Positions 37,415 through 63,312 of a stretch of DNA of 64,000 bases are shown one piece after another. Both the position numbers and the translations under genes were made by a program. The notes beneath the pieces are model-generated. The model was not told the origin of the DNA, searched no databases, and worked only from the letters and a program-made list of their open reading frames with translations. The first letter of the stretch is position 1, and each line of letters starts with the position of its first letter. Origin of the DNA: an uncultured Pseudomonadota bacterium (GTDB lineage: Bacteria > Pseudomonadota > Gammaproteobacteria > Burkholderiales > Eutrophovitaceae); contig CALJLA010000068.1 of assembly GCA_937983055.1 (NCBI GenBank), forward strand, positions 784 to 64,783. Direction: 5' to 3'.

Positions 37415-38125
37415 ATGAAACTACTGATGACACTACTTGGTGTGATCGTGCTCATCGCCGTCGGAGCCATAGGGTTCGCGCATTCCGGCATCTATGATGT
37501 CAGCGCCAGCGCGTCTCACAGTGGTCCTGTTAGCTGGCTGCTATCGACGACGTCACATGCCTCTATTAAACGACGCGCCGGCGCAGTGGACGTTCCGGAT
37601 TTGACTGACGAATCACTCGTGCGCGCTGGCGTGAACGACTTTGATACGATGTGTGCGGGCTGTCATGGCGCCCCCGGTCGGGTACCCGAGGCGGTGGGTC
37701 AGGGTCTCAATCCACCGGCACCGGATCTAGCCGAATCCGCGGCGCATATGAGTTCCGCAGAGCTTTTCTGGGTCACAAAGCACGGCATCAAGATGACCGG
37801 CATGCCTGCTTGGGGGGCGACACACGACGATGACGCCTTGTGGCCGGTGGTCGCCTTCATGAGCTCACTTCCCGATCTTGACGCCGAAGGCTATCAGGCG
37901 CTCCTCGCCAGTGCGCAAGGGATGGGGCACCATGCGGCAGACGACAACGGCCCACATGCCCACGGTGAGAATGACTCCGTATCGCCGGCGGATGAGCACG
38001 ACCATGGGGGTTCAACCACCGAGCACAACCCCACCAGCGACGGTCACGACGATCACACCCACGACGAACCAATGGCTGATCAGACAGAGCCTCCAGATGA
38101 TGACGGACACGACCATGAGCACTGA
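37415..38125 (+). CDS. membrane-anchored mono-haem c-type cytochrome with His/Asp-rich tail, paralog A
   Basis: N-terminal TM segment, CAGCH haem motif, a GMPAWG Met-ligand region, and a tail ending GHDHEH. Confidence 0.75.
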   Translation: MKLLMTLLGVIVLIAVGAIGFAHSGIYDVSASASHSGPVSWLLSTTSHASIKRRAGAVDVPDLTDESLVRAGVNDFDTMCAGCHGAPGRVPEAVGQGLNPPAPDLAESAAHMSSAELFWVTKHGIKMTGMPAWGATHDDDALWPVVAFMSSLPDLDAEGYQALLASAQGMGHHAADDNGPHAHGENDSVSPADEHDHGGSTTEHNPTSDGHDDHTHDEPMADQTEPPDDDGHDHEH

Positions 38126-41671: not shown

Positions 41672-42067
41672 ATGAACATTGGTCAGGCGGCGGCCGCCAC
41701 CGGCGTTACCGCCAAGCGTATTCGTTATTACGAGCAGATCGGCCTCATCGAGCCGGCCGGGCGCACGGGCTCGGGTTACCGCCATTTCGACGAACGCGAC
41801 CTGCACACCTTGCGCTTCATCCAGCGTGCGCGACATCTCGGCTTCCCGATGCCGAAGATCGCGAACCTGCTGGCGCTGTGGCGCGACCAGAATCGCAGCA
41901 GCGCCGACGTCAAGCGGCTGGCCAAGGAACACATTGCAGAACTCGAGCAAAAGATCGCCGAGCTGCAGTCAATGGTCGACACGCTGAAGCACCTGGCGCA
42001 CCAGTGCAGCGGCGACGAGCGGCCCGATTGCCCGATCATCGCCGGCTTCGAAGGAGAACAATCATGA
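41672..42067 (+). CDS. cueR: Cu(I)-responsive MerR-family regulator CueR/HmrR
   Basis: [28 protein letters not shown] and the C-x8-C metal loop [16 protein letters not shown] overlap with copA. Confidence 0.85.
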
Positions 42068-44286
42068 GCGCGACCTGGACCTGCCCGATGCACCCCGAGG
42101 TGCAGTCGGACAAACCGGGCTCCTGCCCCAAGTGCGGTATGGCGCTCGAGCGCGCCGATGTGCCGGTACGCAAGACGCAGTACACGTGCCCGATGCACCC
42201 GGAAATCGTTCGCGATCATCCCGGCAGCTGCCCGATCTGCGGCATGGCGCTGGAACCGGTCGTCGCGAGCGCCGAGGAAGACACCAGCGAACTCGACGAC
42301 ATGACGCGGCGCTTCTGGGTCAGCGCAGTGCTGACCTTGCCGCTGTTCGTCTACGCGATGGCCGAGATCATCCCTGGCCACCCGCTGGAGCACCTGTTGC
42401 CGGGCGCGTGGCGCCAGTGGGCGCAACTCGCATTGGCAGCGCCCGTGGTGCTTTGGGGCGGTTGGCCGTTCTTCGTGCGTGGCTGGAACTCGGTTCGAAC
42501 GATGAACCTGAACATGTTCACGCTGATTGCGCTCGGCGTCGGCGTCGCCTTTGTCTACTCGGTCGTCGCAGTCGCAATGCCGGGCATCTTTCCGCAGGCA
42601 TTTCAGAATGCCGCGGGCGAGGTGGCCGTGTACTTCGAGGCGGCCGCCGTCATCACGACGCTGGTGTTGCTCGGCCAGGTGCTCGAACTGAGGGCTCGCA
42701 GCCAAACGTCGGGCGCGATACGTGCGTTGCTCGAACTCGCGCCGCCAACCGCGCTCAGGATTTCACCCGATGGTAGCGAGCAGGAAGTATCGCTCGACGA
42801 TCTCGCACCGGGTGACCGCCTGCGCGTCAAGCCGGGCGAGAAGGTTCCGGTCGACGGATCGGTCGTCGACGGTCACAGTTCTGTCGACGAGTCGATGGTC
42901 AGTGGTGAGCCTATTCCGGTCGAGAAGCGTGCGGGCGACAAGCTTATCGGCGGTACCGTCAACGGGACCGGCAGCCTCATCATGGAGGTTACCCGGGTCG
43001 GGGACGATACCTTGTTGTCACAGATCGTGCGCATGGTCGCCGAAGCGCAGCGCAGCCGGGCACCGATTCAGAAGCTGGCCGATCTCGTTGCGGCGTGGTT
43101 TGTACCGGCCGTCGTCGTCATCGCGATCATTACGTTCATCGTCTGGTCGATCTGGGGGCCCGCGCCCGCGATGGCTTACGCCATCGTCAACGCCGTTGCG
43201 GTTCTGATCATTGCCTGTCCCTGTGCGCTCGGCCTCGCCACACCGATGTCGATCATGGTCGGTACCGGCAAAGGTGCGCAGAACGGTATCCTGATCAAGA
43301 ATGCCGAAGCACTCGAGACCTTCGAGAAGGTGGACACCGTCGTCGTCGACAAGACAGGTACGCTGACGGAGGGCCGGCCGAAGCTGGTCATGGTCGAAGC
43401 GGCCGGTGGGCACGACGAGAATGAAATGTTGCGCCTCGTCGCATCTGTCGAGCGAGCCAGCGAACACCCGCTGGCCGAGGCCATCGTCGAGGGCGCCGCG
43501 GCTCGATCACTGGAGATCGCGTCCGCCAGCGACTTCGAATCGGTAACCGGCGAAGGCGTCAAGGCCCAAGTTGGCGGCGCCGCCGTTGCAATCGGCAACA
43601 GCAAGTTTATGAAGCGGCTCGGCGCCGAGGATTTCGCGCTCGCGGACGCCGCCGAAAAGCACCGTGCCGACGGTCAAACGGTCATGTTCGTCGCAATCGA
43701 CGGCAGGCCTGCCGGCATCGTTGGCGTGGCCGACCCGATCAAGGAGTCGACGCCGGAGGCCATACGCATGCTGCACCAGGCCGGCCTCAAGGTCGTGATG
43801 TTGACAGGCGACAGTCGTGGCACCGCCGAAGCCGTTGCACGCCAGATCGGCATCGACGAGGTGCATGCCGACGTCTCGCCGGAGGACAAGAATCGCGTCG
43901 TCCGCGAACTGCAGGCAGCCGGCTCTGTCGTCGCCATGGCTGGCGACGGCATCAACGACGCGCCGGCACTCGCACAAGCTGACGTTGGCATAGCGATGGG
44001 TACGGGTACCGATGTCGCAATGGAAAGCGCCGGCGTCACGCTCGTGCGCGGCGACCTGATGGGCGTCGCCAGGGCACGTTTGCTGAGCCGGGCAACCATG
44101 CGCAATATTCGAGAGAATCTTTTTTTCGCGTTCGCGTACAACACCGCCGGTGTGCCGATTGCGGCAGGCGTGCTGTACCCGGTCTTCGGATTGCTGCTGA
44201 GCCCGATGATTGCCGCCGCGGCGATGAGCCTGAGCTCGGTCTCGGTCATCGGCAACGCGCTTCGTCTGCGCAGGTTGAAGTTGTAG
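42064..44286 (+). CDS. copA: Cu(I)-translocating P1B-1 ATPase with two N-terminal HMBD motifs
   Basis: [24 protein letters not shown] and [24 protein letters not shown], with CPC ([12 protein letters not shown]), [15 protein letters not shown], YNxxxxP and MSLSS motifs. Confidence 0.9.
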
Positions 44287-44307: not shown

Positions 44308-45612
44308 ATGGAATCGAGCAACGACTACAAATCCGGCAGCCTGACGCTGACTGCGACGGTGGCAATGGGTACCGGGGTCATGATCGGTGCGGGCATCTTC
44401 GCGCTAACCGGACAGGTCGCGGAGTACGCGGGACCCATGTTCCCGCTGGCATTTTTGCTCGCTGCGGTTATCAGTGCCTTCAGCGCCTACACCTATATAA
44501 AGGTAACGAGCAAGTATCCGTCCGCCGGCGGCATCGCGATGATCCTGCAAAAAGCCTACGGCAAGACCATGATGACCGGCGCCTGCGCCCTGCTGATGGC
44601 ATTCTCGATGATCATCAACGAGAGCCTGGTCGCTCGAACCTTCGGTACCTATACCCTGCAGCTCTTCGACGCGGGAGATCAGGCATGGCTGGTTCCCTTG
44701 CTGGCCGTCGGCCTGATCGTCGTCGCGTTCCTGATCAATATCGCCGGCAATCGCCTGATCGGCGCGGTATCCAAGGTCACGGCAGCAATCAAGATCCTGG
44801 GCATCGTCGGGTTCGCGGCGGCAGCCTTGTGGGCCGCGGGCTTCACATTTGAGCCGGCAACGACGGGCGTCGTTGACGACACGTCGGCAACAGGATTTCT
44901 CGCCGGCGTTGCCCTCGCGATTCTCGCGTACAAGGGCTTTACAACAATCACTAACAGTGGCGGCGAAGTCGTCGAGCCGCACAAGAATGTCGGTCGAGCA
45001 ATAATGATATCGCTCGGAATCTGCGTCGCTGTTTACATGCTTGTAGCGTTCGGCGTGGGTTCTACGCTGACAATCGACGAGATCGTGCGAGCGAAGGACT
45101 ATTCGCTCGCCGAAGCAGCACGCCCAGCACTCGGTGACAATGGCGTCTGGTTCACGGTGGCCATTGCCATCATCGCCACCAGCTCGGGTCTGCTGGCGAG
45201 CGTTTTTGCGGTGTCGCGAATGCTCGCGATGCTGACGAATATGAATATCATTCCGCACCGGCATTTCGGCATGCCGGGCGGCATCCAGAAGCACACGCTG
45301 GTATATACCGTGGTACTTGCCGCTGTGCTGGCGGCGTTCTTCGATCTGAGCCGGATCGCGTCGCTCGGTGCGATTTATTACCTCGTCATGGACATCGCTG
45401 TTCACTGGGGCGTCTGGCGTCACCTTCGGGACGACGTCGGTGCCCGTGCCTGGGTGCTGATTGTCGCGATGCTTCTCGATGCACTGGCCCTGGTTGCCTT
45501 CCTGGTCATCAAGGGAGGAGCGGACCCGCTGATCGTTGGCATAGCCGCTGGTTCGATCGCCCTTATATTCGGATTTGAAAAATACTACCTGGCGAGGCGG
45601 CGCGGGCAGTGA
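44308..45612 (+). CDS. APC-superfamily amino acid permease, paralog B
   Basis: 434-aa ORF that is collinear and highly similar to 31891-33222. It starts 21 bp after the copA stop. Confidence 0.85.
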   Translation: MESSNDYKSGSLTLTATVAMGTGVMIGAGIFALTGQVAEYAGPMFPLAFLLAAVISAFSAYTYIKVTSKYPSAGGIAMILQKAYGKTMMTGACALLMAFSMIINESLVARTFGTYTLQLFDAGDQAWLVPLLAVGLIVVAFLINIAGNRLIGAVSKVTAAIKILGIVGFAAAALWAAGFTFEPATTGVVDDTSATGFLAGVALAILAYKGFTTITNSGGEVVEPHKNVGRAIMISLGICVAVYMLVAFGVGSTLTIDEIVRAKDYSLAEAARPALGDNGVWFTVAIAIIATSSGLLASVFAVSRMLAMLTNMNIIPHRHFGMPGGIQKHTLVYTVVLAAVLAAFFDLSRIASLGAIYYLVMDIAVHWGVWRHLRDDVGARAWVLIVAMLLDALALVAFLVIKGGADPLIVGIAAGSIALIFGFEKYYLARRRGQ

Positions 45613-45703: not shown

Positions 45704-46129
45704 ATGATGCGAGCGCGAAAATCCATTGCCGGCCTGTTCGCCATAGTCCTCGTCTTGTCTGCTTGGACCGGGGCAGGGGCTATGTGCGAAATGGATGCGG
45801 CGCTGACCACCGCGTCCGCCTCCGCAAGTACGGATGCCCACGCGCATCACGCCACCAACACGGCTTCGCAAGATCACCAGGGCATGGATCACAGCAAACA
45901 TCTCGCTGCTAGCGGCGGCGAGGCAGAACAGGGATCCTCGGTCGAGTGCCCGTGTTGCGGCAGTTGCGCCTCGATGTGTGTACTTTCGAGCGGCAGCCCG
46001 ATCGTAACGTCGGTCGCTACCGGCCTTTTTTCGGTTGGCGCAGGCGCTGAGCGTTCACCGAAGGCAGATGCGTTTCGGGCTGGCCCGACGCCTCACGCAC
46101 CCTACCGACCTCCAATTCTCTCTGCGTAG
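45704..46129 (+). CDS. exported Cys/His-rich protein (DUF2946/CopL-like), paralog B
   Basis: Signal peptide with DAHAHHATN, VECPCCGSCASMC and a C-terminal PYRPPILSA. Confidence 0.5.
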   Translation: MMRARKSIAGLFAIVLVLSAWTGAGAMCEMDAALTTASASASTDAHAHHATNTASQDHQGMDHSKHLAASGGEAEQGSSVECPCCGSCASMCVLSSGSPIVTSVATGLFSVGAGAERSPKADAFRAGPTPHAPYRPPILSA

Positions 46130-46253: not shown

Positions 46254-46937
46254 ATGAAAACTCTACTCAAGCTCGCCGCCGTGCTGGTGATCGGTGTCGT
46301 CGGCATTATCGCGTTCGCGTATTCCGGCCTTTACGATGTCAGCGCAAGCGCACCGCATAGCGGCGCAGTCCACTGGCTGCTGTCGACGACCTCCCATGCA
46401 TCCATCGAACGGCGTGCAAGGAAAATCGATGTGCCCGACCTGAGCGATGAGTCACTCGTTCGTGCGGGCGTAAACGACTTCGAAGCCATGTGCGTCGGCT
46501 GCCATGGCGCGCCGGGCAAGGCCGCCGAAGCTATGGGCCAGGGCCTCAATCCACCGGCGCCGGATCTCGCCGAGTCGGCTGCGCGCATGACCCCGGCGGA
46601 ATTGTTCCAGGTGACGAAGCACGGCATCCGGATGACCGGCATGCCGGCCTGGGGCGCGACACACGACGACGATGCGATCTGGCCCGTGGTTGCATTCATG
46701 ACCCGGCTCCCGACACTCGACGCTGACGAATACGACGCGTTTTTGGCTAGCGCTGCCGGCATGGGCCACCACGCGGGTGACGAGCACGGCGCCGGTGCTC
46801 ATGACCACGCAATGGAACCCGCGTCCGGGCAGGCTGACAAAGCCGTTGAGCACGACCACAGCACGCACTCGCATGGTGACGATCCACCACAACCCGACGC
46901 AGACGAATCCCATGACGGCCACGATCATGAGCACTGA
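46254..46937 (+). CDS. membrane-anchored mono-haem c-type cytochrome with His/Asp-rich tail, paralog B
   Basis: CVGCH haem motif and GMPAWG, with a tail ending HDGHDHEH. It is collinear with 37415-38125. Confidence 0.75.
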   Translation: MKTLLKLAAVLVIGVVGIIAFAYSGLYDVSASAPHSGAVHWLLSTTSHASIERRARKIDVPDLSDESLVRAGVNDFEAMCVGCHGAPGKAAEAMGQGLNPPAPDLAESAARMTPAELFQVTKHGIRMTGMPAWGATHDDDAIWPVVAFMTRLPTLDADEYDAFLASAAGMGHHAGDEHGAGAHDHAMEPASGQADKAVEHDHSTHSHGDDPPQPDADESHDGHDHEH

Positions 46938-48606
46938 ATTGCGCAACGACATTTCTGCAGAGCGCCGTCCCCTGGCGCGTGAATCGCAACGGACCGGTGT
47001 GCGATTCCGGCGCCCGTTCGCATTGGTTGCGGTCGTACTGCTCGGCGGCTGTAGCAGCATCCCGGCAGACCTGGGACGCGGCGAGGTCAACGAACTGGTT
47101 ACGGCACGCGGCCAGCCCGTCGATGCGAGAACCGACGAATTGCTCGCGAGATTGACGTCAGCCCCTTTGTCGGCGGAGAGCGCGATCCGCATTGCGCTCA
47201 TCAACAATCCGGAGCTGCAGGCCAGTTATGCAAGCCTCGGTTTCGCTGCAGCCGACGTGTACGAAGCCGGCCGCATAAGAAACCCGATCCTGAGTGGCGT
47301 ATTCCTGGATACGAACGCCGCCGGCGAGCGGGACCAGGTAACGTATGGCCTGGTCGTGTCGTTCACCGACCTGATCACGCTGCCGGCACGCAAGCGCCTG
47401 TCGCGCGGCGCATTCGCGGCGATGAAGCACCGGGTTGGCGCCGATGTGCTCGGCGTGTCGGCGGCTGCCGAGAAGGTTTATTACGACTACGTCGGCGCAC
47501 AGCAGGTGGCAGCCCTCAGGGCCCAGATCGCCAAAGCCGGCGAACTTTCCGCACGGCTGGCGCAGCGATTCTTCGATGCCGGCAATCTTGCGCCACGCGA
47601 GTTGGCGATGGAGCGAGCGACGGCGTCGGAGGCGCGACTGAACGCGCTGGAGGCGGCCAAAGCATCCTTCGCTGCGAGGACCGCCCTGGCAACCGTGCTG
47701 GGGTTGTCGGTCGGCGAGCCCTGGACGGCACCGGCGGCATTGCGGTTGCCGGTCGCCACCGAAGACGATCTCGATGAGTTGCTGGCGCTCGCCCGTAATT
47801 CCCGGCTCGACCTTGCTGCCGCACACACGAATGCCGATGTACTGGCGGATCGCCTCGGCGTCGTGAACTGGACCCGATGGCTGGGCGATCTCGACGTCGG
47901 TTTCGAGCGCGAGCGGGACACTGACGGCTCGCGGCTTTCGGGTCCTACGGTCGACTGGGAGGTACCGATCTTCAACCAGCATCGCGACGCACTGCTGCGA
48001 GCCGACGCGGAATTACAGGTAGCAGTCAGCAACGTGCGTCGCGTGACACTCGACGTCGACAACAGTGTGCGCCTTGCACACGCAGCGCTGCAGAACGCGC
48101 GCGCAAGAATCGACGAGTACCGAACGACACTGTTACCGCAACGAGTCGAAACGGTCGCGCGCGCACAAGAGGAAGTGAACTTCATGTTGATTGGCATTTT
48201 CGAGCTGATCGCCCTGAAGCAGGACGAGTATGACGCTTACCAGGGCTATCTCGAAGCCATACGTGACTATTGGCTGGCACGCGCAGAGCTGGCGCTCGCC
48301 GTCGGCACGTCACTGCCGAGTGCGGCCAGCATCGGCGACGAACGCATCGACGTGGAGGAATTCGTCCGGCCGGCAGAGAGCGGCGGTGATCACACTGGAC
48401 ATGGCGGCATGCACGACGACATGGCAATGCCGGAGAACGGCGAAAAAGAGTCGGCCATGCCGATGGATCATTCCGGTCACCGGATGAATAAGGACGACGG
48501 CGCGCACCAGTCGCCGCAGCACGAAAAGCCGAAAGACAACCGACCCGACCCGGGCAGTAGCGCAGATCAAAATCAGCACGAGCACGATCACGGAGGTGCA
48601 CAATGA
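46927..48606 (+). CDS. TolC/CusC-family outer-membrane lipoprotein with His/Met-rich C-terminal extension
   Basis: Lipobox LLGGCSS and two OEP-type repeats. About 90 aa of tail follow (HTGHGGMHDDMAMP...MPMDHSGH...QHEHDHGGAQ). The start overlaps the cytochrome stop by 11 nt. Confidence 0.8.
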   Translation: MSTELRNDISAERRPLARESQRTGVRFRRPFALVAVVLLGGCSSIPADLGRGEVNELVTARGQPVDARTDELLARLTSAPLSAESAIRIALINNPELQASYASLGFAAADVYEAGRIRNPILSGVFLDTNAAGERDQVTYGLVVSFTDLITLPARKRLSRGAFAAMKHRVGADVLGVSAAAEKVYYDYVGAQQVAALRAQIAKAGELSARLAQRFFDAGNLAPRELAMERATASEARLNALEAAKASFAARTALATVLGLSVGEPWTAPAALRLPVATEDDLDELLALARNSRLDLAAAHTNADVLADRLGVVNWTRWLGDLDVGFERERDTDGSRLSGPTVDWEVPIFNQHRDALLRADAELQVAVSNVRRVTLDVDNSVRLAHAALQNARARIDEYRTTLLPQRVETVARAQEEVNFMLIGIFELIALKQDEYDAYQGYLEAIRDYWLARAELALAVGTSLPSAASIGDERIDVEEFVRPAESGGDHTGHGGMHDDMAMPENGEKESAMPMDHSGHRMNKDDGAHQSPQHEKPKDNRPDPGSSADQNQHEHDHGGAQ

Positions 48607-49904
48607 CTTCACGACGCGAGTTCCTTGGGTACACGGGCGCTGTCGCGACCGCAGTGGGTACGGTAGCCAACGGGGTAAACGCCCAGGAAGCGCCGCGGGC
48701 TCCGGTGGCAGGAAACAGTTCCTCGTATCGGCCTGTGAGAACCCTCAACGGCTGGACGCTGCCATACACGATGAAAAACGGCGTAAAAGAGTTTCACCTG
48801 GTCGCCGAGGAGGTCGAGCACGAGTTCGCGCCGGGCAGCCGCGCCAAGTGCTGGGGTTATAACGGCACGACGCCGGGCCCGACGATCGAGGCTGTCGAGG
48901 GCGACCGGGTGCGCATACTCGTTACGAACAATCTGAAGGAGCACACGACCATACACTGGCACGGCCTGATCCTGCCGAGCGGGATGGACGGAGTCGGCGG
49001 CCTTAACCAGCCGCACATCAATCCGGGGGAGACCTTCGCCTACGAGTTCACGCTGAAGCAACACGGCAGCCACATGTATCACCCGCACGCGGACGAAATG
49101 GTGCAGATGGCTGTCGGCATGATGGGCATGTTTATCATTCACCCGAAGAACGGCGAAGCGGTACCTGTCGATCGCGACTACTGTTTCCTGCTGCACAACT
49201 GGGCAATGCACCCGGGTACGTACCGGCCGGACCCTGCGATCATGCAGGACTTCGATCTATGGACGTTCAACAGCAAGGTTTTTCCGGCTATTGACCCGGT
49301 GGTCGCCCGCACCGGCGAGCGTGTGCGGGTGCGCATGGCCAACCTGTCGATGTGGAACCACCCGATACACATGCACGGCGTGCAGTACTGGGTGACCGGG
49401 TCCGACGGAGGGCGCTGGCCGAGAAGCCAGTGGCGCACGGAAACGACGGAAATCGTCGGCGTCGGCCAGATTCGCGACATCGAGTTCGTCGCGGTGCCGG
49501 GCGACTGGGCGTTCCACTGCCACATGGCGCACCACACGATGAATGCGATGGGCCACGACGTCCCGAACCCGATCGGCGTCGACCAGCGCGGTATAGAAAA
49601 CGAGATCAAGAAGATTCTGCCGGGCTACCTAGCGATGGGCGAATACGGCATGGCCGAACACCAGGACCACATCGACATGGGTCATCACGGCGGCCCGCGA
49701 AACACGCTGCCGATGATGACCGGCAAAGGTCCGTACGGAAATATCGAAATGGGCGGCATGTTCACGACCGTCAAGGTCCGCGACAACCTGGCGCGCAACG
49801 ATTTCAGTGACCCGGGCTGGTATGAACCGCCACAGGGAACAGTTGCGTACCGTATCAGCGAGGACCCGGAGTTTGGAACACCACACCGGCGGAAGCCGGC
49901 CTGA
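48603..49904 (+). CDS. multicopper oxidase (compact, Tat-exported)
   Basis: Tat signal SRREFLGYTG, with HWHG, HPHADE, HPIHMHG and HCHMAHHTMNAM copper ligand motifs. ATGA overlap with the TolC-like gene. Confidence 0.85.
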   Translation: MTSRREFLGYTGAVATAVGTVANGVNAQEAPRAPVAGNSSSYRPVRTLNGWTLPYTMKNGVKEFHLVAEEVEHEFAPGSRAKCWGYNGTTPGPTIEAVEGDRVRILVTNNLKEHTTIHWHGLILPSGMDGVGGLNQPHINPGETFAYEFTLKQHGSHMYHPHADEMVQMAVGMMGMFIIHPKNGEAVPVDRDYCFLLHNWAMHPGTYRPDPAIMQDFDLWTFNSKVFPAIDPVVARTGERVRVRMANLSMWNHPIHMHGVQYWVTGSDGGRWPRSQWRTETTEIVGVGQIRDIEFVAVPGDWAFHCHMAHHTMNAMGHDVPNPIGVDQRGIENEIKKILPGYLAMGEYGMAEHQDHIDMGHHGGPRNTLPMMTGKGPYGNIEMGGMFTTVKVRDNLARNDFSDPGWYEPPQGTVAYRISEDPEFGTPHRRKPA

Positions 49905-49975: not shown

Positions 49976-50488
49976 ATGAACAAGATGTACGCACGTAGAT
50001 TATCGAATTACTTGGCAACGCTGGTACTCGTCCCGTGCTTGTTTGTGTCGGCTGAACTGCGGGCCGATTCCACGGACGAGTCACGCATCGTCGAGATCAT
50101 CGATGCGATAGAGCGGGGCTGGGAGACCGCGGACGGTACGCCGTTTCGGGAGCATTTTCTCGATTTCGATGGCGCCCGATACATAGAAAGCGGCGGCCAG
50201 AACGCCGGCCTGAGCGATCTCATCGACAATCATGTCGAACCGGAAGGCGACGCGCTCGATTCGCTGGAGCTGAACTTTTCGAACATCGAGGTGCATTGGG
50301 AGGGGCCCTTCGCCTGGGCTGTCGCCGATACGGAAGTGATCGCCGTCGTCAAAGCCGACAAGCGGCGCATTCACAATCGTGGCTATCAGACATTTCTGTT
50401 TCGTGCCGTCGACGACGACTGGAAGGTAATTCACACGCACAGCTCGTCGCGACCGGTCAAAAAAGAGGGCGACAATCATGAACACTGA
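49976..50488 (+). CDS. exported SnoaL/DUF4440-like (NTF2-fold) protein with C-terminal NHEH
   Basis: Signal peptide, and the pattern IIDAIERGWETAD...WKVIHTHSS typical of DUF4440/SnoaL-like proteins. The tail reads EGDNHEH. Confidence 0.55.
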   Translation: MNKMYARRLSNYLATLVLVPCLFVSAELRADSTDESRIVEIIDAIERGWETADGTPFREHFLDFDGARYIESGGQNAGLSDLIDNHVEPEGDALDSLELNFSNIEVHWEGPFAWAVADTEVIAVVKADKRRIHNRGYQTFLFRAVDDDWKVIHTHSSSRPVKKEGDNHEH

Positions 50489-50566: not shown

Positions 50567-51166
50567 ATGAGAAACAAGCCCAAGCAATTGAGTAGCCCAT
50601 CCGGGCTGACGGCCGTGTCGGCCGCCTTCGTGGAACACAGCGCGTTCCTCAGGAAGTACCTGGCGCGCTACTTCTCGGATCGGCAGGATATTGAAGATGT
50701 GGCGCAAGAGGCCTATTTGCGTGCCTACGTCGCCGAGCAGCAAAAGGACATCGAGCAGCCGAAAGCCTTTCTCTTTCGTATCGCGAAGAACGTTGCGCTT
50801 ACGAAACTGACCAGGAAGTCAAGACAAATCACCGATTATCTTGAGGAAACGGGCGCTTCGCTGGTTATAGACTGTGAAAGTTCCGCGGAACAGGCGGCGA
50901 CGGCCGAAGAATCGCTGGGCCTTTACTGCGAGGCGGTGGCATCGCTGCCAGACAAGTGCAGGCAGGTATACTTGCTGCGCAAAGTCCATGGCCTGGCTCA
51001 CAAGGAGATTGCGGAAAGAATGTCCCTGTCGGTAAGTTCAGTGGAGAAGTACCTGCTGCGCGGCGTTCTGGAGTGCCGGGCGTTCGTGCTGGCTCGTGGA
51101 GGCGATGAGACATTGGTAGGCAGGAATCAGGGTGTACCGACCAGGTGCAAGAAGGGTGCGCAATGA
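50567..51166 (+). CDS. ECF sigma factor (FecI-like)
   Basis: Region 2 (DIEDVAQEAYLRAY; FLFRIAKNVAL) and region 4 (HKEIAERMSLSVSSVEKYL). Confidence 0.85.
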   Translation: MRNKPKQLSSPSGLTAVSAAFVEHSAFLRKYLARYFSDRQDIEDVAQEAYLRAYVAEQQKDIEQPKAFLFRIAKNVALTKLTRKSRQITDYLEETGASLVIDCESSAEQAATAEESLGLYCEAVASLPDKCRQVYLLRKVHGLAHKEIAERMSLSVSSVEKYLLRGVLECRAFVLARGGDETLVGRNQGVPTRCKKGAQ

Positions 51167-52290
51167 CTGACCGAATTGTCGAGTTTCCCGATCGCCGCGC
51201 AATTGCCGAGGAGGCTGCGACATGGCTGATTCGCCTGGATGCCGACGATGCGCCGACCCAGGTAGACATCGCGGCGCTTCAGGAGTGGCTGAGCCGCAGT
51301 CCCGTGCATCGCGAGGAACTCCAGAGCCTCGCGGTACTGTGGGAAAAGATGAACGTCCTGACCGAGCTTGCTGTGCCGCTGGCCAGGCCCGCCGGCCAAT
51401 CGGCGAGCCATACTCGATTGTTGTCTGTGCAGGCTGCGCTGGCGTCAGTGGCATTCGTCGCATTTGTGATATCGATCGGGATTGCTGCCCTGTTCTGGCA
51501 AAGCACGTCATCTTTTCACGAATCGAACGGCCTGTTCGCGACCGCGATCGGCCAGCAGCAGACGACAACACTGTCCGACGGCTCCGTCGTTGTCCTCAAT
51601 ACCGACAGCCAGATCGAGGTCAACTATCATGCAGAATTCCGCGACATTCGCTTGCTGCGTGGCGAAGCGCATTTTACGGTTGCTGATAACAGCGACCAAC
51701 CGTTTCGTGTATTCGCCGGCACCGGCCGGGTGCAGGCGATTGGCACGGCATTCTCTGTGTATCTGAAAGAACAGAGCATTGATGTAACCGTTACGGACGG
51801 TCGGGTTTCGTTGGCTACACTAAACGAACACCGCGCCGCTAGCGGGTTGTCGACAGTTGTTGATCATGTGGAACCACAGGCGTCAGGATCGGTTGAGACA
51901 GAGATCGACGACTACCTCGAGGCGGTTGTAGCGCTGAGCGCCGGGCAAAGCGCGACGATAAAGACCGGTCCGGACTCCGAATCGAACGCCCGGAGTATTC
52001 AGGAAAGCGTGCGGACGATCCCATCTCAGGATCTGGCCAAGAAACTGGCGTGGCGCGATGGCATGCTGTCCTTCGCAGGAGATCCACTGGAATTGGTCGT
52101 CAGCGAGATCAGCCGATACACGCCAATCACGATCGAAATTGCCGATCCGGCAATCCGTGCAACGCGCATCGGTGGGCAGTTTCCGGTCGGACAGACGGAG
52201 GCCATGTTCGACGCGCTCGAGGCAAATTTCGGGTTGCGTGTTACGCGTTTGAGCCGTGATCGTGTCGTGCTATCTGCCGCAAACGAGTAA
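51163..52290 (+). CDS. FecR-family anti-sigma factor
   Basis: The N-terminus AATWLIRLDADD...LQEWL, one TM segment and a periplasmic FecR domain. ATGA overlap with the sigma gene. Confidence 0.85.
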   Translation: MTDRIVEFPDRRAIAEEAATWLIRLDADDAPTQVDIAALQEWLSRSPVHREELQSLAVLWEKMNVLTELAVPLARPAGQSASHTRLLSVQAALASVAFVAFVISIGIAALFWQSTSSFHESNGLFATAIGQQQTTTLSDGSVVVLNTDSQIEVNYHAEFRDIRLLRGEAHFTVADNSDQPFRVFAGTGRVQAIGTAFSVYLKEQSIDVTVTDGRVSLATLNEHRAASGLSTVVDHVEPQASGSVETEIDDYLEAVVALSAGQSATIKTGPDSESNARSIQESVRTIPSQDLAKKLAWRDGMLSFAGDPLELVVSEISRYTPITIEIADPAIRATRIGGQFPVGQTEAMFDALEANFGLRVTRLSRDRVVLSAANE

Positions 52291-52411
52291 CACCGGGTCG
52301 TCGAACGATACGGAGCTGCGTCCGGCTCGCCAGCCGCGGACCTTGTCGCGTCTGCACATCGACGGCTGGCGAACGGTCAAGAACCCTGGTTCCTGGGCTC
52401 GCAGAGAAAAA

Positions 52412-55400
52412 ATGTTCAAGTTTTATTGCGGCTTTCCGGTCCTCGGTAGTTATCTGATTGACAAGTCCGATCGGGTACATCGACAGAGGAACTGCGTGTC
52501 CGGACGGGTTGTTGGGGGAACGCAACATCGGGCTGCCCGCGTGACGCGATGGTTGGCGAGTTGGCTGATGGTGGCCATGCTGAGTACCGCGAGCATCGCC
52601 GCCGAGCCGTCCGGTGAGCCGTTGTTTGACATTGACATACCGCCCTTGAATGCGGCGGAGGCGTTGAACCGCCTTGCCAAACAAACCGGCGCAATCATGC
52701 TTTTCCCCTACGACCTGGCTGAATCTCGACAAGCCAACGCAGTATCGGGTCGATATTCGTTGAGCGATGCTTTGGAGCTGCTCCTGCGGGACTCGGGACT
52801 CTCGAGCGGACTGTCGGACAAACGTGTGATTCAGATCTACGTTGCTGAAGAGACAGAACGTGACACCGAGGTGGGGGACGACATGAATACGAGAAAGAAG
52901 ACAGGTTTGGTAGCGATGCTGGCGAGCGTGTTCAGCGTCAGTGCGAGCGCACAGGATTCGGGGACCCTGGCGGGCGATGGCAATACCGTCGAAGAAGTGG
53001 TCGTGACGGGCAGTCGCATTGCCCGAAAAGACCTCAACAGCGTCGGGCCCATGACGATAATCGGCGCTCCGGAAATCGAAGCGACGGGCGTCACGTCGCT
53101 CGAAGTGCTGCTGCAGCGACTACCGTCATCGGCTGGCTTTGGCGGCAATCAGACATCGGCGTACTGGGTGTCGAACGGCTGGGGTACGCCACAGATCAAC
53201 CTGCGGGGCATGGGCATCAACCGCACGCTGGTTCTGCTGAACGGAAGACGAATCGTCGCCGGCGGGACCGGTGCGAATACCTCCGTGGATCTGAGCATGA
53301 TCCCGGTTTCGATCATCGAGCAGATCGAGGTGCTCAAGGACGGCGCATCGGCCATCTATGGCGCTGACGCGGTCGCCGGCGTTGTCAATATCATTACCAA
53401 GAAGAACTTCGAGGGCGTCGAAGCCGCGGTCAAGGCCGGTGCGGCGTTCGAGGGCGATGGCGAGGAGTTACAGCTCGACCTGACCTGGGGCGTCACAAAC
53501 GAACGTGGCAGCCTGATGGCCAACATCAGCTATCAGGATGCAGACGAGGTTTACATGCCTGACCGTGTCGACTGCCCCCGGTCCGAGGTCAATGGCCAGC
53601 TCGTTTGCTTCGGCAGCAGCAGTACTACGGGCGGCCGGGCGCTCTTGCCCGACGGAACGCGCATAAACTTCAACCAGGATCCCAATGGCAGCGGTGACGA
53701 TTTCGCAATTTACGATCCGTTGATTCACAACTTCGACTTCAATCAGTCGTTCAACGCCGTCAATCCCCTGGAACGCCTGTCGTTTTCGGCATTCGGCAAT
53801 CACGAGTTGACGGACCGGGTCGGCATATTCGGCGAGGTCATGTACACAAATCGACAGACCGACCAGCCTGCCTCACCGACCACTATCAGGAACATCTTTT
53901 TCGACGCCAGCCACCCGACCAATCCGACCGGCGAGGACGTATTCCTGGAAAATCGGCGCATCGCCGAAAGTGGCGACCGGCAGTTTTTCCAGGAAACAGA
54001 TACCTGGCGCGTGGTTGCCGGGCTCGATGGCGAGTTCTCCGATACGTGGAGCTGGGATGTTTCCTACAACTGGGGGCGCAATACCGGTATCGATGGCTCA
54101 ACGAACATCGTCAATCTGCTAAGGCTCAACGAAACGCTGGATACCTCGATCTGTGGAACGGGCGGTATCCCCTGTGCCGATATCCTGGGCCTCGGCGACG
54201 TAACACAGGAGGTCATGGACTACATTCTGTTCACGATGGTCGGTACCGGTGGCAACGAGCAGACGAGCATCTCGGCCAACGTGTCGGGCGAATTGTTCGA
54301 TCTGCCGGCCGGCCCGGTATTGCTCGCCGCTGGCTACGAGAACAGGAACGACAAGGGCTGGCGCAACCCGGATTCACTGGTAATTATTGGCGCCGCCAAT
54401 ACGAATGCGGCCGACCCGATTTCGGGTACGGTCAAGTCCGACGAGTTCTACGTGGAAGCGAGCTTGCCGATTCTCGTCGATGCGCCGCTTGCCCGAAACC
54501 TCAACCTCGACTTGGCGTTTCGATTCTCGGACTATGAAACCTTTGGCAGCGACGACAACTTCAAGATCGGCCTCAACTGGCAGATCATTGATGATCTGAA
54601 GATTCGTGCGAATCTGTCGACCGCGTTCAGAGTGCCGAACGTCAATGAACTGTTCGGCGGCGTCGCTGAGGGCAACCTGACGACGACCGATCCATGTTCG
54701 GGCTGGAGCGATCTGGATCCCAGTAACGTCGTCTACCAGAATTGCCAGGCCGACGGCGTTCCTGTGGGCTTCATGCAGCTCGGCAACACGATCCTGACAA
54801 CGGTGGGTGGCAATACTGCGCTCGAACCCGAGAGTGCCGACACGTTTACTCTTGGAGTCGTCTATGAACCGTCGTTCCTGGAAGGTCTGGCGCTGACACT
54901 CGACTACTATGACATCGAAATCGAGGACGCGATTACGCAAATTCCCGGTTCGACCAAGCTCGATGTTTGCTACAACACGCCGAATCTTGCGCATGAATTT
55001 TGTTCGCCAGCGCACTTTACGCGGAGCTCGTTGAGCGGAGACGTCAATTTCCTGTCGGCGCAACCCGTCAACTCGGGGCTGGAAACCATCAAGGGCATTG
55101 ATTTCGGGCTGACCTACAACTTCGACCTGATGGATTTGCCTGCTGCTTTCGATTTCAAGACGACGCTGTTGAACGAGTACGAGATCACGCCGTTTTCCGG
55201 TGCGGCACCTATCGTTCTGGATGGACACATTGGTGGCGGTAACGGAGGCTATTCTCGTTTTCGCTCTTACATGTCGCTGAATGTCGGTGCGGAAAGATGG
55301 GGCGGAACCTATTCCGTACAGGTCATCGGTGATGGTGACGACTTCAATGCTGAGCCACCAGCGATCGGTGCGGAGATCGATTCCGTTGTCTACCATTATT

Positions 55401-55573
55401 TGCAGGCGACGTATGAATTCTCTGACAGCATGCGGCTTGCAGTCGGAATCGACAATCTGTTCGACGAGGGCGCCCCTTACGTCGCGTCCTGGACGGATGC
55501 CAATACCGATACGATGACCTACGACCTCACCGGGCGGCGTGGCTACGCTCGGCTGACGTACCGCTGGCAGTAA
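52412..55573 (+). CDS. TonB-dependent transducer (STN signalling domain + plug + 22-strand barrel)
   Basis: STN region (IPPLNAAEALNRLAKQTGAIMLFPYD) and plug (VVVTGSRI...IEVLKDGASAIYGADAVAGVVNIITKK), with a C-terminal barrel ending TYRWQ. The start is uncertain. Confidence 0.85.
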   Translation: MFKFYCGFPVLGSYLIDKSDRVHRQRNCVSGRVVGGTQHRAARVTRWLASWLMVAMLSTASIAAEPSGEPLFDIDIPPLNAAEALNRLAKQTGAIMLFPYDLAESRQANAVSGRYSLSDALELLLRDSGLSSGLSDKRVIQIYVAEETERDTEVGDDMNTRKKTGLVAMLASVFSVSASAQDSGTLAGDGNTVEEVVVTGSRIARKDLNSVGPMTIIGAPEIEATGVTSLEVLLQRLPSSAGFGGNQTSAYWVSNGWGTPQINLRGMGINRTLVLLNGRRIVAGGTGANTSVDLSMIPVSIIEQIEVLKDGASAIYGADAVAGVVNIITKKNFEGVEAAVKAGAAFEGDGEELQLDLTWGVTNERGSLMANISYQDADEVYMPDRVDCPRSEVNGQLVCFGSSSTTGGRALLPDGTRINFNQDPNGSGDDFAIYDPLIHNFDFNQSFNAVNPLERLSFSAFGNHELTDRVGIFGEVMYTNRQTDQPASPTTIRNIFFDASHPTNPTGEDVFLENRRIAESGDRQFFQETDTWRVVAGLDGEFSDTWSWDVSYNWGRNTGIDGSTNIVNLLRLNETLDTSICGTGGIPCADILGLGDVTQEVMDYILFTMVGTGGNEQTSISANVSGELFDLPAGPVLLAAGYENRNDKGWRNPDSLVIIGAANTNAADPISGTVKSDEFYVEASLPILVDAPLARNLNLDLAFRFSDYETFGSDDNFKIGLNWQIIDDLKIRANLSTAFRVPNVNELFGGVAEGNLTTTDPCSGWSDLDPSNVVYQNCQADGVPVGFMQLGNTILTTVGGNTALEPESADTFTLGVVYEPSFLEGLALTLDYYDIEIEDAITQIPGSTKLDVCYNTPNLAHEFCSPAHFTRSSLSGDVNFLSAQPVNSGLETIKGIDFGLTYNFDLMDLPAAFDFKTTLLNEYEITPFSGAAPIVLDGHIGGGNGGYSRFRSYMSLNVGAERWGGTYSVQVIGDGDDFNAEPPAIGAEIDSVVYHYLQATYEFSDSMRLAVGIDNLFDEGAPYVASWTDANTDTMTYDLTGRRGYARLTYRWQ

Positions 55574-55587
55574 GGACACGGGTAGCG

Positions 55588-55613
55588 TGCGGGGCGGCGG
55601 CTGCCGCCCCGCA
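55588..55613 (+). terminator. GC-rich hairpin after the receptor gene
   Basis: TGCGGGGCGGC-ggct-GCCGCCCCGCA, an 11-bp perfect stem with no clear T-tract. Confidence 0.45.
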
Positions 55614-55681
55614 GTGAGCGAAGTGCGCTCTGCTGCGTGGGTACCAAGCGTGAGTCACACAATGCAATCAGGAATAAAATC

Positions 55682-56446
55682 ATGAAAGCGCCGTTTCTTG
55701 CGCGCAAGGCCCACAAGTGGCTCGCATTGATTGTCGGTATTCAGGCCATGTTCTGGATGGTCAGCGGCGCTTACATGGCAACGGTGGACATCGACTTCAT
55801 CCATGGCGATCCCCTGGTCAAGAACGTCGTTGAGCCTGTCGGAAAGGATCTGGCCGAGCTCTATCCCATGAGCGACATTCTCGAACGATATCCGCAGGCC
55901 ACCCGGGTTCAGTTCATAGCGCGACGCGGCGACCCGCACTATATCGTCAAGACTGCGCAGGGCAGTACCCTTCTGGACGCCACAACTGGAGCGGAACGCA
56001 CGCCGATCGATCGCAGTGAGGCCATGGCGCTGGCCACGCACTACTACGCCGGCGATGGCGAGATCATTGCTGCTGTATTGCTTGACGACAGTGATGCCCG
56101 GCCAACCGAGATCCAGTCACGGCCATTGCCGCTCTGGCAGGTGCGATTCGACGACCGGATTGAAACGACTTTCTATGTATCGCCGACGACAGGAGAGCTG
56201 ATTACTCGCCGCCACACATTCTGGCGGCTATACGATTTCTTGTGGATGTTCCACATCATGGATTACGAGAATCGAACGGACTTCAATAATAATTTACTCA
56301 GAGTGGCCGCGTTCGTCGGACTCCTGTTTGCGTTGACCGGTGTCTGGCTCCTGTTCTACAGCCTGAAGAAGCGCCAGCAGGCGGTCATACCGGTCGATGA
56401 CTCGAACATTGGTGATAGAAGTGATCTGGTTCCGAAGACTCCATAA
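55682..56446 (+). CDS. PepSY-domain membrane protein (PepSY_TM-like, 2 TM)
   Basis: N-terminal AHKWLALIVGIQAMFWMVSG helix, a periplasmic domain of about 170 aa, and a C-terminal FLWMFHIMDY...TGVWLLFYSL helix. Confidence 0.65.
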   Translation: MKAPFLARKAHKWLALIVGIQAMFWMVSGAYMATVDIDFIHGDPLVKNVVEPVGKDLAELYPMSDILERYPQATRVQFIARRGDPHYIVKTAQGSTLLDATTGAERTPIDRSEAMALATHYYAGDGEIIAAVLLDDSDARPTEIQSRPLPLWQVRFDDRIETTFYVSPTTGELITRRHTFWRLYDFLWMFHIMDYENRTDFNNNLLRVAAFVGLLFALTGVWLLFYSLKKRQQAVIPVDDSNIGDRSDLVPKTP

Positions 56447-61622: not shown

Positions 61623-61631
61623 CGCTGACCC

Positions 61632-61662: not shown

Positions 61663-61698
61663 CGGTCCATGCAACAACAATTGCAAGGAGGGATCGGC

Positions 61699-62894: not shown

Positions 62895-62897
62895 ATC

Positions 62898-63302: not shown

Positions 63303-63312
63303 GAGAACTGCA

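What the first reader, a model, noticed from the sequence alone, without database searches (positions are those of the whole stretch)
46254..49904. Tightly coupled cytochrome c / TolC-like / multicopper oxidase operon with no RND pump or membrane-fusion partner
Three genes overlap: the cytochrome stop and TolC start by 11 nt, and TolC and the MCO by ATGA. The outer-membrane factor has a lipobox and an unusual His/Met-rich C-terminal extension of about 90 aa. No RND, ABC/MFS or adaptor (MFP) gene exists anywhere in the 64 kb. TolC/CusC-type channels are normally useless without an inner-membrane partner. Coupling one to a periplasmic oxidase and a membrane-anchored c-type cytochrome therefore suggests a different logic. 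Cu(I) could be oxidised with electrons passed to or from the respiratory chain, and the product could be released through, or sequestered on, the metal-binding tail of the outer-membrane channel. In that reading the TolC-like protein plays the role CopB/PcoB plays for CopA.
Basis: partly seen in the sequence, partly recalled or inferred. Interest (0 to 1): 0.65.

Follow-up and report, generated by a model that had tools for sequence, protein, structure and literature searches.

The report
Outer-membrane channel paired with copper oxidase
A TolC-type outer-membrane channel gene is welded to a small two-domain copper oxidase gene, a pair found across many bacterial phyla with no efflux pump attached; it most likely acts as a copper-detoxifying "oxidise and let out" unit whose mechanism has never been worked out.

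Summary
Cytochrome c (46254-46937), a TolC-family lipoprotein (46927-48606) and a multicopper oxidase (48603-49904) overlap by 11 nt and by ATGA. I found no RND or adaptor gene in the 64 kb or in 10 kb beyond each end.

The invariant unit is the channel-oxidase pair, not the triad. In 75 of 75 genome loci found through the channel alone that had downstream DNA, the same oxidase follows directly. These loci span Gamma-, Beta- and Alphaproteobacteria, Myxococcota, Planctomycetota and others. On plasmids the two genes occur about 1:1 (348 and 355 records). RND pumps lie within 10 kb in 6 of 41 fully flanked loci, and all seven tested have their own channel gene.

The oxidase has two cupredoxin domains plus a family-specific Met-rich C-terminal extension. 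The cytochrome is a lineage-specific accessory; a His-rich CopI-like cupredoxin replaces it elsewhere. The His/Met tail is disordered, periplasmic by topology and found only in the gamma clade.

The pair is not unknown. Sinorhizobium meliloti omp-cueO and probably Acidovorax citrulli tolC-cueO are the same module, copper-induced and needed for tolerance. Pump-free channel function is inferred, not shown. Verdict: a moderately interesting new variant of a known kind.

The parts
41672..42067 (+). CueR-type MerR regulator, 131 aa, with the C-terminal motif C-x7-C. Its stop overlaps the ATPase start (ATGA).
   Evidence: Pfam MerR, MerR_1 and MerR-DNA-bind. Translation, junction. The same gene precedes the ATPase in L001 and L004.
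42064..44286 (+). Cu(I)-exporting P1B-type ATPase (CopA type) with two N-terminal HMBD domains. It is the presumed source of periplasmic Cu(I).
   Evidence: Pfam and NCBIfam matches to TIGR01511 and TIGR01525. A P1B-ATPase lies within 10 kb of the pair in 17 of 41 fully flanked loci.
44308..45612 (+). APC-family permease of unknown role. An 83%-identical paralogue follows the canonical copAB pair at 31891-33222.
   Evidence: Pfam AA_permease_2. Paralogy from blastp. Also present in L001 and L002.
45704..46129 (+). CopL/CzcI-like secreted His/Cys-rich protein, with an MDHS motif, CPCCGSC and a C-terminal YRPP.
   Evidence: NCBIfam CopL_fam E 1.6e-8, below the curated cut-off. Look-alikes sit upstream of the pair in L003 and S. 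meliloti (weak CopL_fam hits), in Ralstonia (weak CzcI hit), and in Massilia and Phaeobacter (by sequence motifs only; Massilia had no family hit, Phaeobacter was not scanned).
46254..46937 (+). Monoheme c-type cytochrome (CVGCH at 46491-46505). It has an N-terminal hydrophobic segment, either an anchor or a signal peptide, and a C-terminal tail with 13 His in 68 aa.
   Evidence: PF13442 at E 3.6e-15. Tail composition. Conserved just upstream of the channel in close gamma relatives and downstream of the oxidase in the Arenimonas clade.
46927..48606 (+). TolC-family outer-membrane factor lipoprotein, 559 aa. An alternative ATG lies at 46912.
   Evidence: PF02321 in two stretches. The AF2 model has four strands plus long helical hairpins with core pLDDT above 90. 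Foldseek gives probability 1.0 to TolC, OprM/N/J, CmeC, CusC and SilC at 15-18% identity.
47038..47052 (+). Lipobox L-L-G-G-C (residues 38-42).
   Evidence: Read directly from the sequence. C42 is invariant in A1 and A3.
48334..48603 (+). Disordered His/Met/Asp-rich C-terminal tail of the channel, with MDHSGH-type motifs.
   Evidence: Composition. pLDDT is below 50 from residue 484. The motif is conserved but the length varies in gamma relatives, and the tail is absent in beta relatives.
48603..49904 (+). Tat-exported multicopper oxidase with two cupredoxin domains, 433 aa. The copper ligands are H118/H120, H160/H162, H253/H256/H258 and H305-C306-H307-x3-H311-x4-M316.
   Evidence: Pfam finds Cu-oxidase_3 and Cu-oxidase_2 only, with no middle domain. 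Residues 60-335 align end to end with the two-domain MCOs 3g5w, 2zwn and 3gdc. Identity to the partner gene in 75 loci is 49-85%.
49560..49901 (+). Family-specific Met-rich C-terminal extension of the oxidase (…MMTGKGPYGNIEMGGMFTTVKVR…DPGWY…).
   Evidence: No Pfam hit. Solved two-domain MCOs lack it. It matches 675 representative clusters; where the hits are full-length oxidases it sits at the C-terminal end. It is conserved in the S. meliloti, Burkholderia and Phaeobacter oxidases.
49976..50488 (+). Secreted SnoaL_3/DUF4440-like protein of unknown role, a gamma-clade accessory.
   Evidence: Pfam SnoaL_3 at E 2.4e-5. It follows the oxidase in L001, L002, L004, L005, L012 and L013.

Best explanation
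This is a copper-detoxification module. Its invariant core is a two-gene unit: a TolC-family outer-membrane lipoprotein translationally coupled to a Tat-exported, two-cupredoxin-domain multicopper oxidase.

Proposed working, with inferred steps marked:
1. The CueR-controlled P1B-ATPase pumps Cu(I) into the periplasm (family knowledge).
2. Cu(I) is collected on His/Met-rich arms (inferred). These arms are the oxidase's own C-terminal Met-rich extension, the cytochrome's His tail and the channel's MDHSGH tail.
3. The oxidase turns Cu(I) into Cu(II) using O2. The His-rich one-electron carrier, cytochrome c here and a CopI-like cupredoxin elsewhere, relays electrons from bound Cu(I) to the oxidase's T1 site (inferred).
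4. The dedicated channel lets copper leave across the outer membrane without an RND pump or adaptor (inferred). It would thus do for this oxidase what CopB/PcoB is thought to do for CopA/PcoA.

Shown here: gene identities, folds, overlaps, strict pairing, absence of pump genes nearby, and copper context. Shown in the literature for homologues: copper induction and copper sensitivity of mutants. Not shown anywhere: that the channel conducts copper, how it opens, or the direction of electron flow.
For: - Strict pairing. 75 of 75 genome loci retrieved with the channel alone carry the oxidase directly downstream on the same strand. On plasmids there are 348 channel records and 355 oxidase records with near-identical counts per genus.
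- Conservation. The oxidase is much better conserved than the channel, mean 65% against 38% identity.
- No pump nearby. No RND or MFP was found in the window or within 10 kb of either end. RND lies within 10 kb in only 6 of 41 fully flanked loci. Seven of seven tested neighbouring pumps have their own OEP gene overlapping or abutting the adaptor gene.
- Copper context. The neighbours are a CueR-like MerR, a Cu-ATPase and a CopL-like protein here, and CopRS, CusF-like, CopC/CopD and CopI-like proteins elsewhere.
- Operon architecture. Burkholderia and Massilia have TolC-like - oxidase - CopC - CopD.
- Channel fold. The protein has an OMF fold with a lipobox.
- Oxidase features. It has a Tat signal, all four copper motifs and Met-rich segments.
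- Experimental homologue. S. meliloti pSymA carries the same operon, with 56% oxidase identity. Published work shows 646- and 243-fold Cu induction and Cu-hypersensitive omp mutants (PMC4932525, PMC6266702).
- Second likely homologue. In A. citrulli, tolC (Aave_1811) lies next to cueO (Aave_1810), and its deletion lowers Cu tolerance more than the cusCBA-like deletions do (PMC11052375).
Against: - No OMF is known to open or transport without an adaptor. The resting periplasmic tip of TolC-type channels is closed (established knowledge).
- A passive duct would also let external copper in.
- Only about 84 kb of this genome was seen, so a pump encoded elsewhere cannot be excluded.
- In A. citrulli the tolC deletion is milder than the cueO deletion (PMC11052375), so the oxidase does most of its job without the channel.
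- The His/Met tail and the cytochrome are absent in many lineages, so they cannot be essential to the core mechanism.
- The oxidase structure prediction failed (pLDDT 45), so the domain count rests on sequence alone.
Confidence: 0.5

Rival explanations
1. The TolC-like protein is an ordinary OMF that docks with an adaptor and an inner-membrane pump (RND, ABC or MFS) encoded elsewhere in the genome. It is merely co-regulated with the oxidase so that oxidation and pump-driven efflux rise together.
For: The protein has the canonical OMF fold and a conserved tip motif. E. coli TolC itself is unlinked to its pumps (established knowledge). Some relatives have Cus/Czc-type pumps within 10 kb. The authors of the A. 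citrulli study assume an unknown partner pump (PMC11052375).
Against: A general-purpose OMF would not be expected to sit next to one oxidase family in 75 of 75 loci across phyla, or to travel with it 1:1 on plasmids. The neighbouring pumps tested all carry their own OMF. No adaptor gene was found in the roughly 84 kb seen here.
Confidence: 0.25
2. The channel protein does not conduct copper. It serves as an envelope scaffold or sink. It would hold the oxidase and its redox partner under the outer membrane and bind copper on its periplasmic tail, so protection comes from sequestration plus oxidation.
For: The tail is disordered and rich in His, Met and Asp, with MDHSGH motifs like those of copper-binding proteins. 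By OMF topology it lies in the periplasm outside the barrel. No conserved Met/His/Cys site exists in the barrel core (invariant columns).
Against: The tail is missing in the beta relatives aligned, which keep the strict pairing, and the S. meliloti channel ends without a His/Met-rich stretch. A full 12-strand channel with a long helical barrel is an expensive scaffold. Sequestration capacity would be only a few ions per protein.
Confidence: 0.12
3. The unit is not primarily for copper detoxification. In this reading the oxidase is a terminal oxidase for the cytochrome or cupredoxin, or it oxidises another substrate such as Mn(II), Fe(II) or a phenolic, and the product or substrate passes through the channel.
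For: A one-electron carrier (cytochrome c or CopI-like cupredoxin) is a recurrent neighbour. One database source names a homologue 'manganese oxidase'. The two-domain MCO of Nitrosomonas sits in an operon with cytochromes c (from memory, not tested).
Against: The neighbours are consistently copper-specific: CueR, CopRS, a Cu-ATPase, CusF, CopC/D, CopL and CopI. Homologues are copper-induced and their mutants are copper-sensitive (PMC4932525, PMC11052375).
Confidence: 0.05

Closest known systems
S. meliloti CCNWSX0020 'MCO operon' (omp SM0020_18792 - cueO SM0020_18797 - azurin-like protein - Cu chaperone), and probably A. citrulli tolC (Aave_1811) - cueO (Aave_1810)
   Same: The core is homologous and in the same order. 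S. meliloti pSymA carries CopL-like - small lipoprotein - TolC family protein - copper oxidase (56% identical to the window oxidase, including the C-terminal extension) - CopI-like cupredoxin - CusF-like. It is copper-induced and required for tolerance (PMC4932525, PMC6266702, PMC11052375).
   Different: The window version has a His-tailed c-type cytochrome overlapping the channel start instead of a cupredoxin after the oxidase. It has no CusF-like gene, carries a roughly 90-aa MDHSGH tail on the channel, and is followed by a SnoaL-like protein. Channel identity to S. meliloti is only 27%. My equation of the published genes with the pSymA genes rests on gene order and product names, not on accession numbers. 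The A. citrulli genes were not checked by sequence.
CopA/CopB (PcoA/PcoB) periplasmic oxidase plus outer-membrane protein
   Same: It is also a Tat-exported copper oxidase paired with an outer-membrane protein, both with Met/His-rich copper-binding stretches. In some genomes the pair is followed by CopC and CopD and controlled by CopRS. The presumed logic is the same: oxidise Cu(I) in the periplasm, then release it.
   Different: Neither protein is orthologous. The oxidase has two cupredoxin domains rather than three. The outer-membrane partner is a TolC-fold channel, not a PF05275 barrel. A true copA-copB pair sits elsewhere in the same window. Gene order is reversed, with the outer-membrane gene first.
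CusC/SilC/CzcC outer-membrane factors of heavy-metal RND pumps
   Same: It shares the OMF fold, the N-terminal lipid anchor and the metal-resistance context.
   Different: It is not linked to cusBA or czcBA. It is only 15% identical to CusC and SilC in structure-based alignment and gives no PDB hit by sequence. Where Cus/Czc pumps are nearby they have their own OMF. CusC has no metal-binding tail.
Two-domain multicopper oxidases (SLAC type, N. europaea 3g5w, mgLAC 2zwn)
   Same: It has two cupredoxin domains that align end to end at E of about 1e-34, with all trinuclear-cluster histidines. This implies, from family knowledge, a homotrimer with clusters at the subunit interfaces.
   Different: The T1 ligands (HCH…H…M) lie in domain 2, where 3g5w and 2zwn have HDH. 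It carries an extra conserved 110-aa Met-rich C-terminal extension and a copper-resistance context. The oligomeric state is untested.

Membership tests
Outer-membrane factor (TolC/OEP, PF02321) | Two tandem OEP repeats | tested here: met
   PF02321 at E 1.3e-22 in two stretches.
Outer-membrane factor (TolC/OEP, PF02321) | Protomer with four beta-strands and long alpha-helical hairpins | tested here: met
   AF2 places strands at 121-127, 137-143, 321-327 and 339-345 and helices of 36 to 72 residues, with core pLDDT above 90. Foldseek gives probability 1.0 to 44 OMF chains.
Outer-membrane factor (TolC/OEP, PF02321) | Works with, and is usually encoded beside, a periplasmic adaptor and an inner-membrane pump | tested here: not met
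   No MFP or RND was found in the window or within 10 kb of either end. None was found in 35 of 41 fully flanked relatives, and nearby pumps have their own OMF. Only linkage was tested. A partner encoded elsewhere is not excluded.
Outer-membrane factor (TolC/OEP, PF02321) | Homotrimer forming one duct | not testable with these tools
   Only a monomer could be predicted.
CusC/CzcC-type heavy-metal OMF | Part of a cusCBA or czcCBA operon | tested here: not met
   It is no closer in structure to CusC or SilC than to TolC or OprM.
CopB/PcoB (PF05275) | Homology to the CopB barrel | tested here: not met
   No PF05275 hit for the channel. The window's true CopB is at 30771-31604.
CopB/PcoB (PF05275) | Encoded beside a periplasmic copper oxidase and, in some operons, CopC and CopD | tested here: met
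   This is a functional analogy only: 75 of 75 adjacency, and TolC-like - oxidase - CopC - CopD in Burkholderia and Massilia.
Two-domain multicopper oxidase | Only two cupredoxin domains | tested here: met
   Pfam finds Cu-oxidase_3 and Cu-oxidase_2 but no PF00394, unlike the window's CopA. It aligns collinearly with 3g5w (4-281 of 318) and 2zwn (4-261 of 339). The structure model was too poor to confirm this.
Two-domain multicopper oxidase | Complete T1 and trinuclear copper ligand set | tested here: met
   HWH, HPH, HPIHMH and HCHMAHHTMNAM are invariant in 36 homologues.
Two-domain multicopper oxidase | Homotrimer | not testable with these tools
   Inferred from family knowledge only.
CueO/CopA/PcoA three-domain cuprous oxidases | Three cupredoxin domains | tested here: not met
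   The middle domain is absent.
CueO/CopA/PcoA three-domain cuprous oxidases | Tat export and a Met-rich region | tested here: met
   TAT_signal_seq scores 19 bits against a cut-off of 16.7. The C-terminal 114 aa hold 7 Met.
S. meliloti omp-cueO type module | Homologous TolC-family gene directly followed by a homologous oxidase of roughly 430-450 aa | tested here: met
   The oxidase is 56% identical over 432 aa. The channel is 27% identical at E 9e-26. The order is the same.
S. meliloti omp-cueO type module | Copper induction and copper-sensitive mutants | not testable with these tools
   Known for the homologues only (PMC4932525, PMC6266702, PMC11052375).
Copper-cluster-associated PF13442 cytochrome c (MXAN_3414 type) | Monoheme CcoP-like domain encoded among copper-resistance genes | tested here: met
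   PF13442 at E 3.6e-15 with CVGCH. The linkage is seen. The published synteny survey is PMC3707914. Direct homology to MXAN_3414 was not tested.

The most novel reading that the evidence does not exclude
The two-domain oxidase is a homotrimer that docks directly, three-fold axis on three-fold axis, onto the periplasmic tip of the trimeric TolC-like channel. It would take the place of the adaptor and pump. Oxidation of Cu(I) at the mouth of the duct would then drive one-way release of Cu(II) through the outer membrane, forming a redox-ratcheted exit with no ATP or proton-driven pump. The conserved C-terminal extension of the oxidase would be the docking or gating element, and the cytochrome or cupredoxin an electron relay.
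Probability: 0.15. Interest if true: 0.85.

Novelty: new variant of a known kind. Interest (0 to 1): 0.55.

Why it matters
TolC-family channels are textbook parts of tripartite pumps. A family that has co-inherited with a periplasmic oxidase, and not with any pump, across at least six phyla and hundreds of plasmids would be a second way of using such a channel. It would also give a concrete, testable answer to an old loose end in copper biology: how copper oxidised in the periplasm leaves the cell. The module is common on conjugative plasmids of rhizobia, roseobacters and Burkholderia. It therefore also matters for the spread of copper tolerance in farmed soils and on antifouling surfaces.

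Tried and rejected
- The AlphaFold2 model of the oxidase failed (mean pLDDT 44.6). The alignment available was shallow in diversity, at 78-92% identity, so I did not run a fold search on it. Both prediction jobs were then spent.
- A sequence search of the PDB with the channel found nothing. The fold search was needed to place it.
- The promoter and terminator scan of 41.0-50.8 kb gave no more sites than shuffled sequence, so operon boundaries remain inferred from overlaps.
- I rejected the idea that the channel is the missing OMF of nearby OMF-less cusBA genes (L001, L011, L022, Ralstonia). Seven of seven such clusters have an OEP gene just upstream of the adaptor. In L001 and L075 the DNA upstream of the adaptor is cut off, so those two are unresolved.
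- I rejected the idea that the tail is a CopB-like feature shared with the window's own CopB. That CopB has no Met/His stretch.
- I tried to tie the A. citrulli cueO gene to this family by searching its published qPCR primer in the fetched loci and found no match. The link rests on adjacent locus tags only.
- Two key S. meliloti papers (PMC3957630, PMC5626999) are not held. Their content is cited second-hand from PMC6266702 and PMC4932525.
- The 11.5-kb Rhizobium 'plasmid' carrying the pair without any pump may be an assembly fragment, so I gave it no weight.

Full report
**1. Observation**

- Cytochrome c runs from ATG 46254 to the stop at 46937.
- The TolC-like gene starts at ATG 46927, an 11-nt overlap, and ends at 48606. 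An in-frame ATG at 46912, used by database gene callers, would give a 26-nt overlap.
- The oxidase starts at 48603 within ATGA and is preceded by GGAGG.

Pfam calls them Cytochrome_CBB3 (one CVGCH), OEP in two stretches, and Cu-oxidase_3 plus Cu-oxidase_2. The oxidase has a Tat signal.

The channel has the lipobox LLGGC, and its Cys is invariant in homologues. Its last 90 residues hold 10 His, 6 Met and 12 Asp. AlphaFold2 predicts them as disordered.

I scanned every plausible ORF of the window against Pfam. I also ran tblastn with three RND and three adaptor queries. There is no RND pump and no adaptor.

Sister contigs carrying the window's end genes extend the view by 10 kb on each side, and these hold none either.

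The window as a whole is a metal-resistance island. It carries:
- a second P1B-ATPase;
- CusRS;
- a canonical three-domain copA with copB;
- a CDF transporter;
- a mer operon;
- a CueR-like MerR and a Cu-ATPase just upstream of the finding.

**2. What is conserved**

A protein search with the channel gave hundreds of relatives. Neighbourhood look-ups showed the oxidase directly downstream each time.

I then scanned one genome per species with a channel alignment and fetched 80 loci. These loci were chosen by the channel alone.
- tblastn found the same oxidase immediately downstream on the same strand in every locus with enough downstream DNA. The count was 74 of 75, and the remaining locus, L061, has it by inspection.
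- All 41 loci with full flanks have it.
- The loci cover many Gammaproteobacteria, Beta- and Alphaproteobacteria, Myxococcota, Planctomycetota, Acidithiobacillus, a Parachlamydiales MAG and others.
- The oxidase is far better conserved than the channel, mean 65% against 38% identity.

On plasmids, 348 records carry the channel and 355 carry the oxidase at E ≤ 1e-100. Their per-genus counts are almost identical. The two genes therefore travel as a unit.

By contrast, the cytochrome is present in only 13 of 80 loci. It sits upstream of the channel in the closest gamma relatives and downstream of the oxidase in the Arenimonas group.

In locus L003 a His-rich CopI-like cupredoxin sits immediately upstream of the channel, where the cytochrome sits here (NF047895, E 8e-45). 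A similar protein follows the oxidase in S. meliloti and Phaeobacter. The conserved theme is 'a His-rich one-electron carrier', not a cytochrome as such.

A CopL/CzcI-like secreted Cys/His protein lies upstream of the pair in every lineage I read. This rests on weak family hits in four cases and on sequence motifs alone in two.

**3. Is a pump hiding nearby?**

RND genes lie within 10 kb in 6 of 41 fully flanked loci. For seven such clusters I tested the ORF just upstream of the adaptor. All seven are OEP proteins. These are complete cusCBA or czcCBA sets that do not need the oxidase-linked channel.

This argues against the simplest rival, but it does not exclude a partner encoded far away.

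**4. The proteins**

Channel:
- The model is good in its core (pLDDT above 90) and shows the OMF topology.
- Foldseek matches TolC, OprM/N/J, CmeC, CusC and SilC with probability 1.0 at 15-18% identity. It is no closer to CusC than to TolC. A sequence search of the PDB finds nothing.
- The tail carries MDHSGH-type motifs conserved in the gamma clade. Its length varies, and the beta relatives lack it.
- By the known topology of OMFs both termini are periplasmic. The tail therefore hangs outside the helical barrel and cannot line the duct.

Oxidase:
- Residues 60-335 align end to end with solved two-domain MCOs, and the middle domain of three-domain enzymes is absent.
- All copper ligands are present. 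The T1 set (HCH…H…M) lies in domain 2, where 3g5w and 2zwn have HDH.
- A further 110 residues are Met-rich and highly conserved even in S. meliloti and Burkholderia. They have no Pfam match. They hit 675 representative clusters, and where the hits are full-length oxidases they sit at the C-terminal end.
- The structure prediction of the oxidase failed. The domain count therefore rests on sequence.
- From family knowledge, two-domain MCOs are homotrimers.

**5. What is already known**

S. meliloti pSymA carries CopL-like - small lipoprotein - TolC family protein - copper oxidase - CopI-like cupredoxin - CusF-like. Its oxidase is 56% identical to the window's.

This matches the published 'MCO operon' of strain CCNWSX0020 (omp, cueO, azurin-like protein, chaperone). 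There, omp and cueO are induced 646- and 243-fold by copper and the omp mutant is hypersensitive. The authors proposed oxidation followed by export across the outer membrane (PMC4932525, PMC6266702).

In Acidovorax citrulli, tolC (Aave_1811) lies next to cueO (Aave_1810). Its deletion lowers copper tolerance more than deleting the cusCBA-like genes does, but less than deleting cueO (PMC11052375). I could not verify those genes by sequence.

A Myxococcus study noted that PF13442 cytochromes are often linked to copper genes, including OEP genes (PMC3707914).

In Burkholderia and Massilia the order is CopRS - TolC-like - oxidase - (CusF-like) - CopC - CopD, the place of copABCD.

I found no paper that recognises the pair as a conserved, pump-independent unit, notes that the oxidase is of the two-domain type, or addresses the mechanism. 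A large 2020 review does not mention it.

**6. Mechanism and verdict**

Best supported is a copper-detoxification unit that works like CopA/CopB but is built from different parts:
- a P1B-ATPase delivers Cu(I);
- His/Met arms collect it;
- the two-domain oxidase oxidises it, with a one-electron carrier as helper;
- a dedicated TolC-fold channel lets copper out.

The copper role is very likely. The pump-free channel function is an inference from linkage, and I rate it at about one in two.

The main rival is a trans-encoded pump. A scaffold or sink role and a non-copper role rank lower.

The boldest reading still allowed is that a trimeric oxidase docks on the trimeric channel in place of adaptor and pump.

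Its interpretation is partly supported: the CopB analogy holds, while the triad, the tail and the respiratory link are not core or not testable. The finding is a new variant of a known, thinly studied kind.

Noticed in passing
window 28122-33222: A second, canonical copper unit: MerR (28122-28694), three-domain CopA oxidase (28907-30853), CopB PF05275 (30771-31604), then an APC permease (31891-33222). That permease is 83% identical to the one following the Cu-ATPase at 44308-45612. A duplicated 'amino-acid permease' attached to two different copper units suggests a copper-related role for this transporter.
   Followed up: partly
window 37292-38125 (probable ATG near 37415): A paralogue of the cytochrome c, 64% identical and with the same His/Asp-rich C-terminal tail, stands alone 9 kb upstream with no channel or oxidase beside it.
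   Followed up: partly
window 3922-6913: Two unusual fusions carry the heavy-metal-binding HMBD domain (PF19335). One is an NAD-dependent epimerase/dehydratase with two C-terminal HMBDs (3922-5331). The other has an HMBD, a VKOR domain and SPW repeats (5303-6913). Both are next to pentose-phosphate and glycogen genes and a second P1B-ATPase (9691-12060).
   Followed up: no
window 50567-58274; also L001, L002, L004: An ECF sigma, FecR, TonB-dependent receptor, PepSY_TM protein and a PepSY_TM-ferredoxin-reductase fusion follow the module here and in L001 and L002. The receptor and PepSY genes also lie beside the pair in the more distant L004. This may be a linked metal uptake or reduction system.
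   Followed up: no
window 49976-50488: A secreted SnoaL_3/DUF4440-like protein ending in …GDNHEH directly follows the oxidase in the gamma relatives L001, L002, L004, L005, L012 and L013. Its function is unknown.
   Followed up: partly
window 45704-46129; L003 8727-9098; L007 4932-5345; L009 5566-5922; L090 5242-5622; L091 5259-5651: CopL/CzcI-like proteins with a signal peptide, a His-rich stretch, a Cys cluster and a C-terminal …RPP motif precede the channel-oxidase pair in gamma, beta and alpha lineages. All score below the curated family cut-offs, and two were recognised by motifs alone.
   Followed up: partly
L007 5457-5912; L008 5711-6010; L090 5717-5944; L091 5735-5959: In beta and alpha lineages a small secreted or lipoprotein of 74-151 aa, with no family match in the two cases scanned, overlaps or abuts the channel start, where the cytochrome sits in the window. 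The four share a loose motif (GY/F…P…W(R/Q)).
   Followed up: no
window 61197-64000; L092: A mercury resistance cluster lies at the window end: merR, an unknown ORF, a merB-like gene, merT and merP, with merA just beyond the window. A second merR and a merT fragment follow in the sister contig.
   Followed up: partly
L091 2310-4741: The Phaeobacter plasmid carrying the module also carries a CBASS anti-phage system (cGAMP synthase and phospholipase) 1 kb upstream.
   Followed up: no
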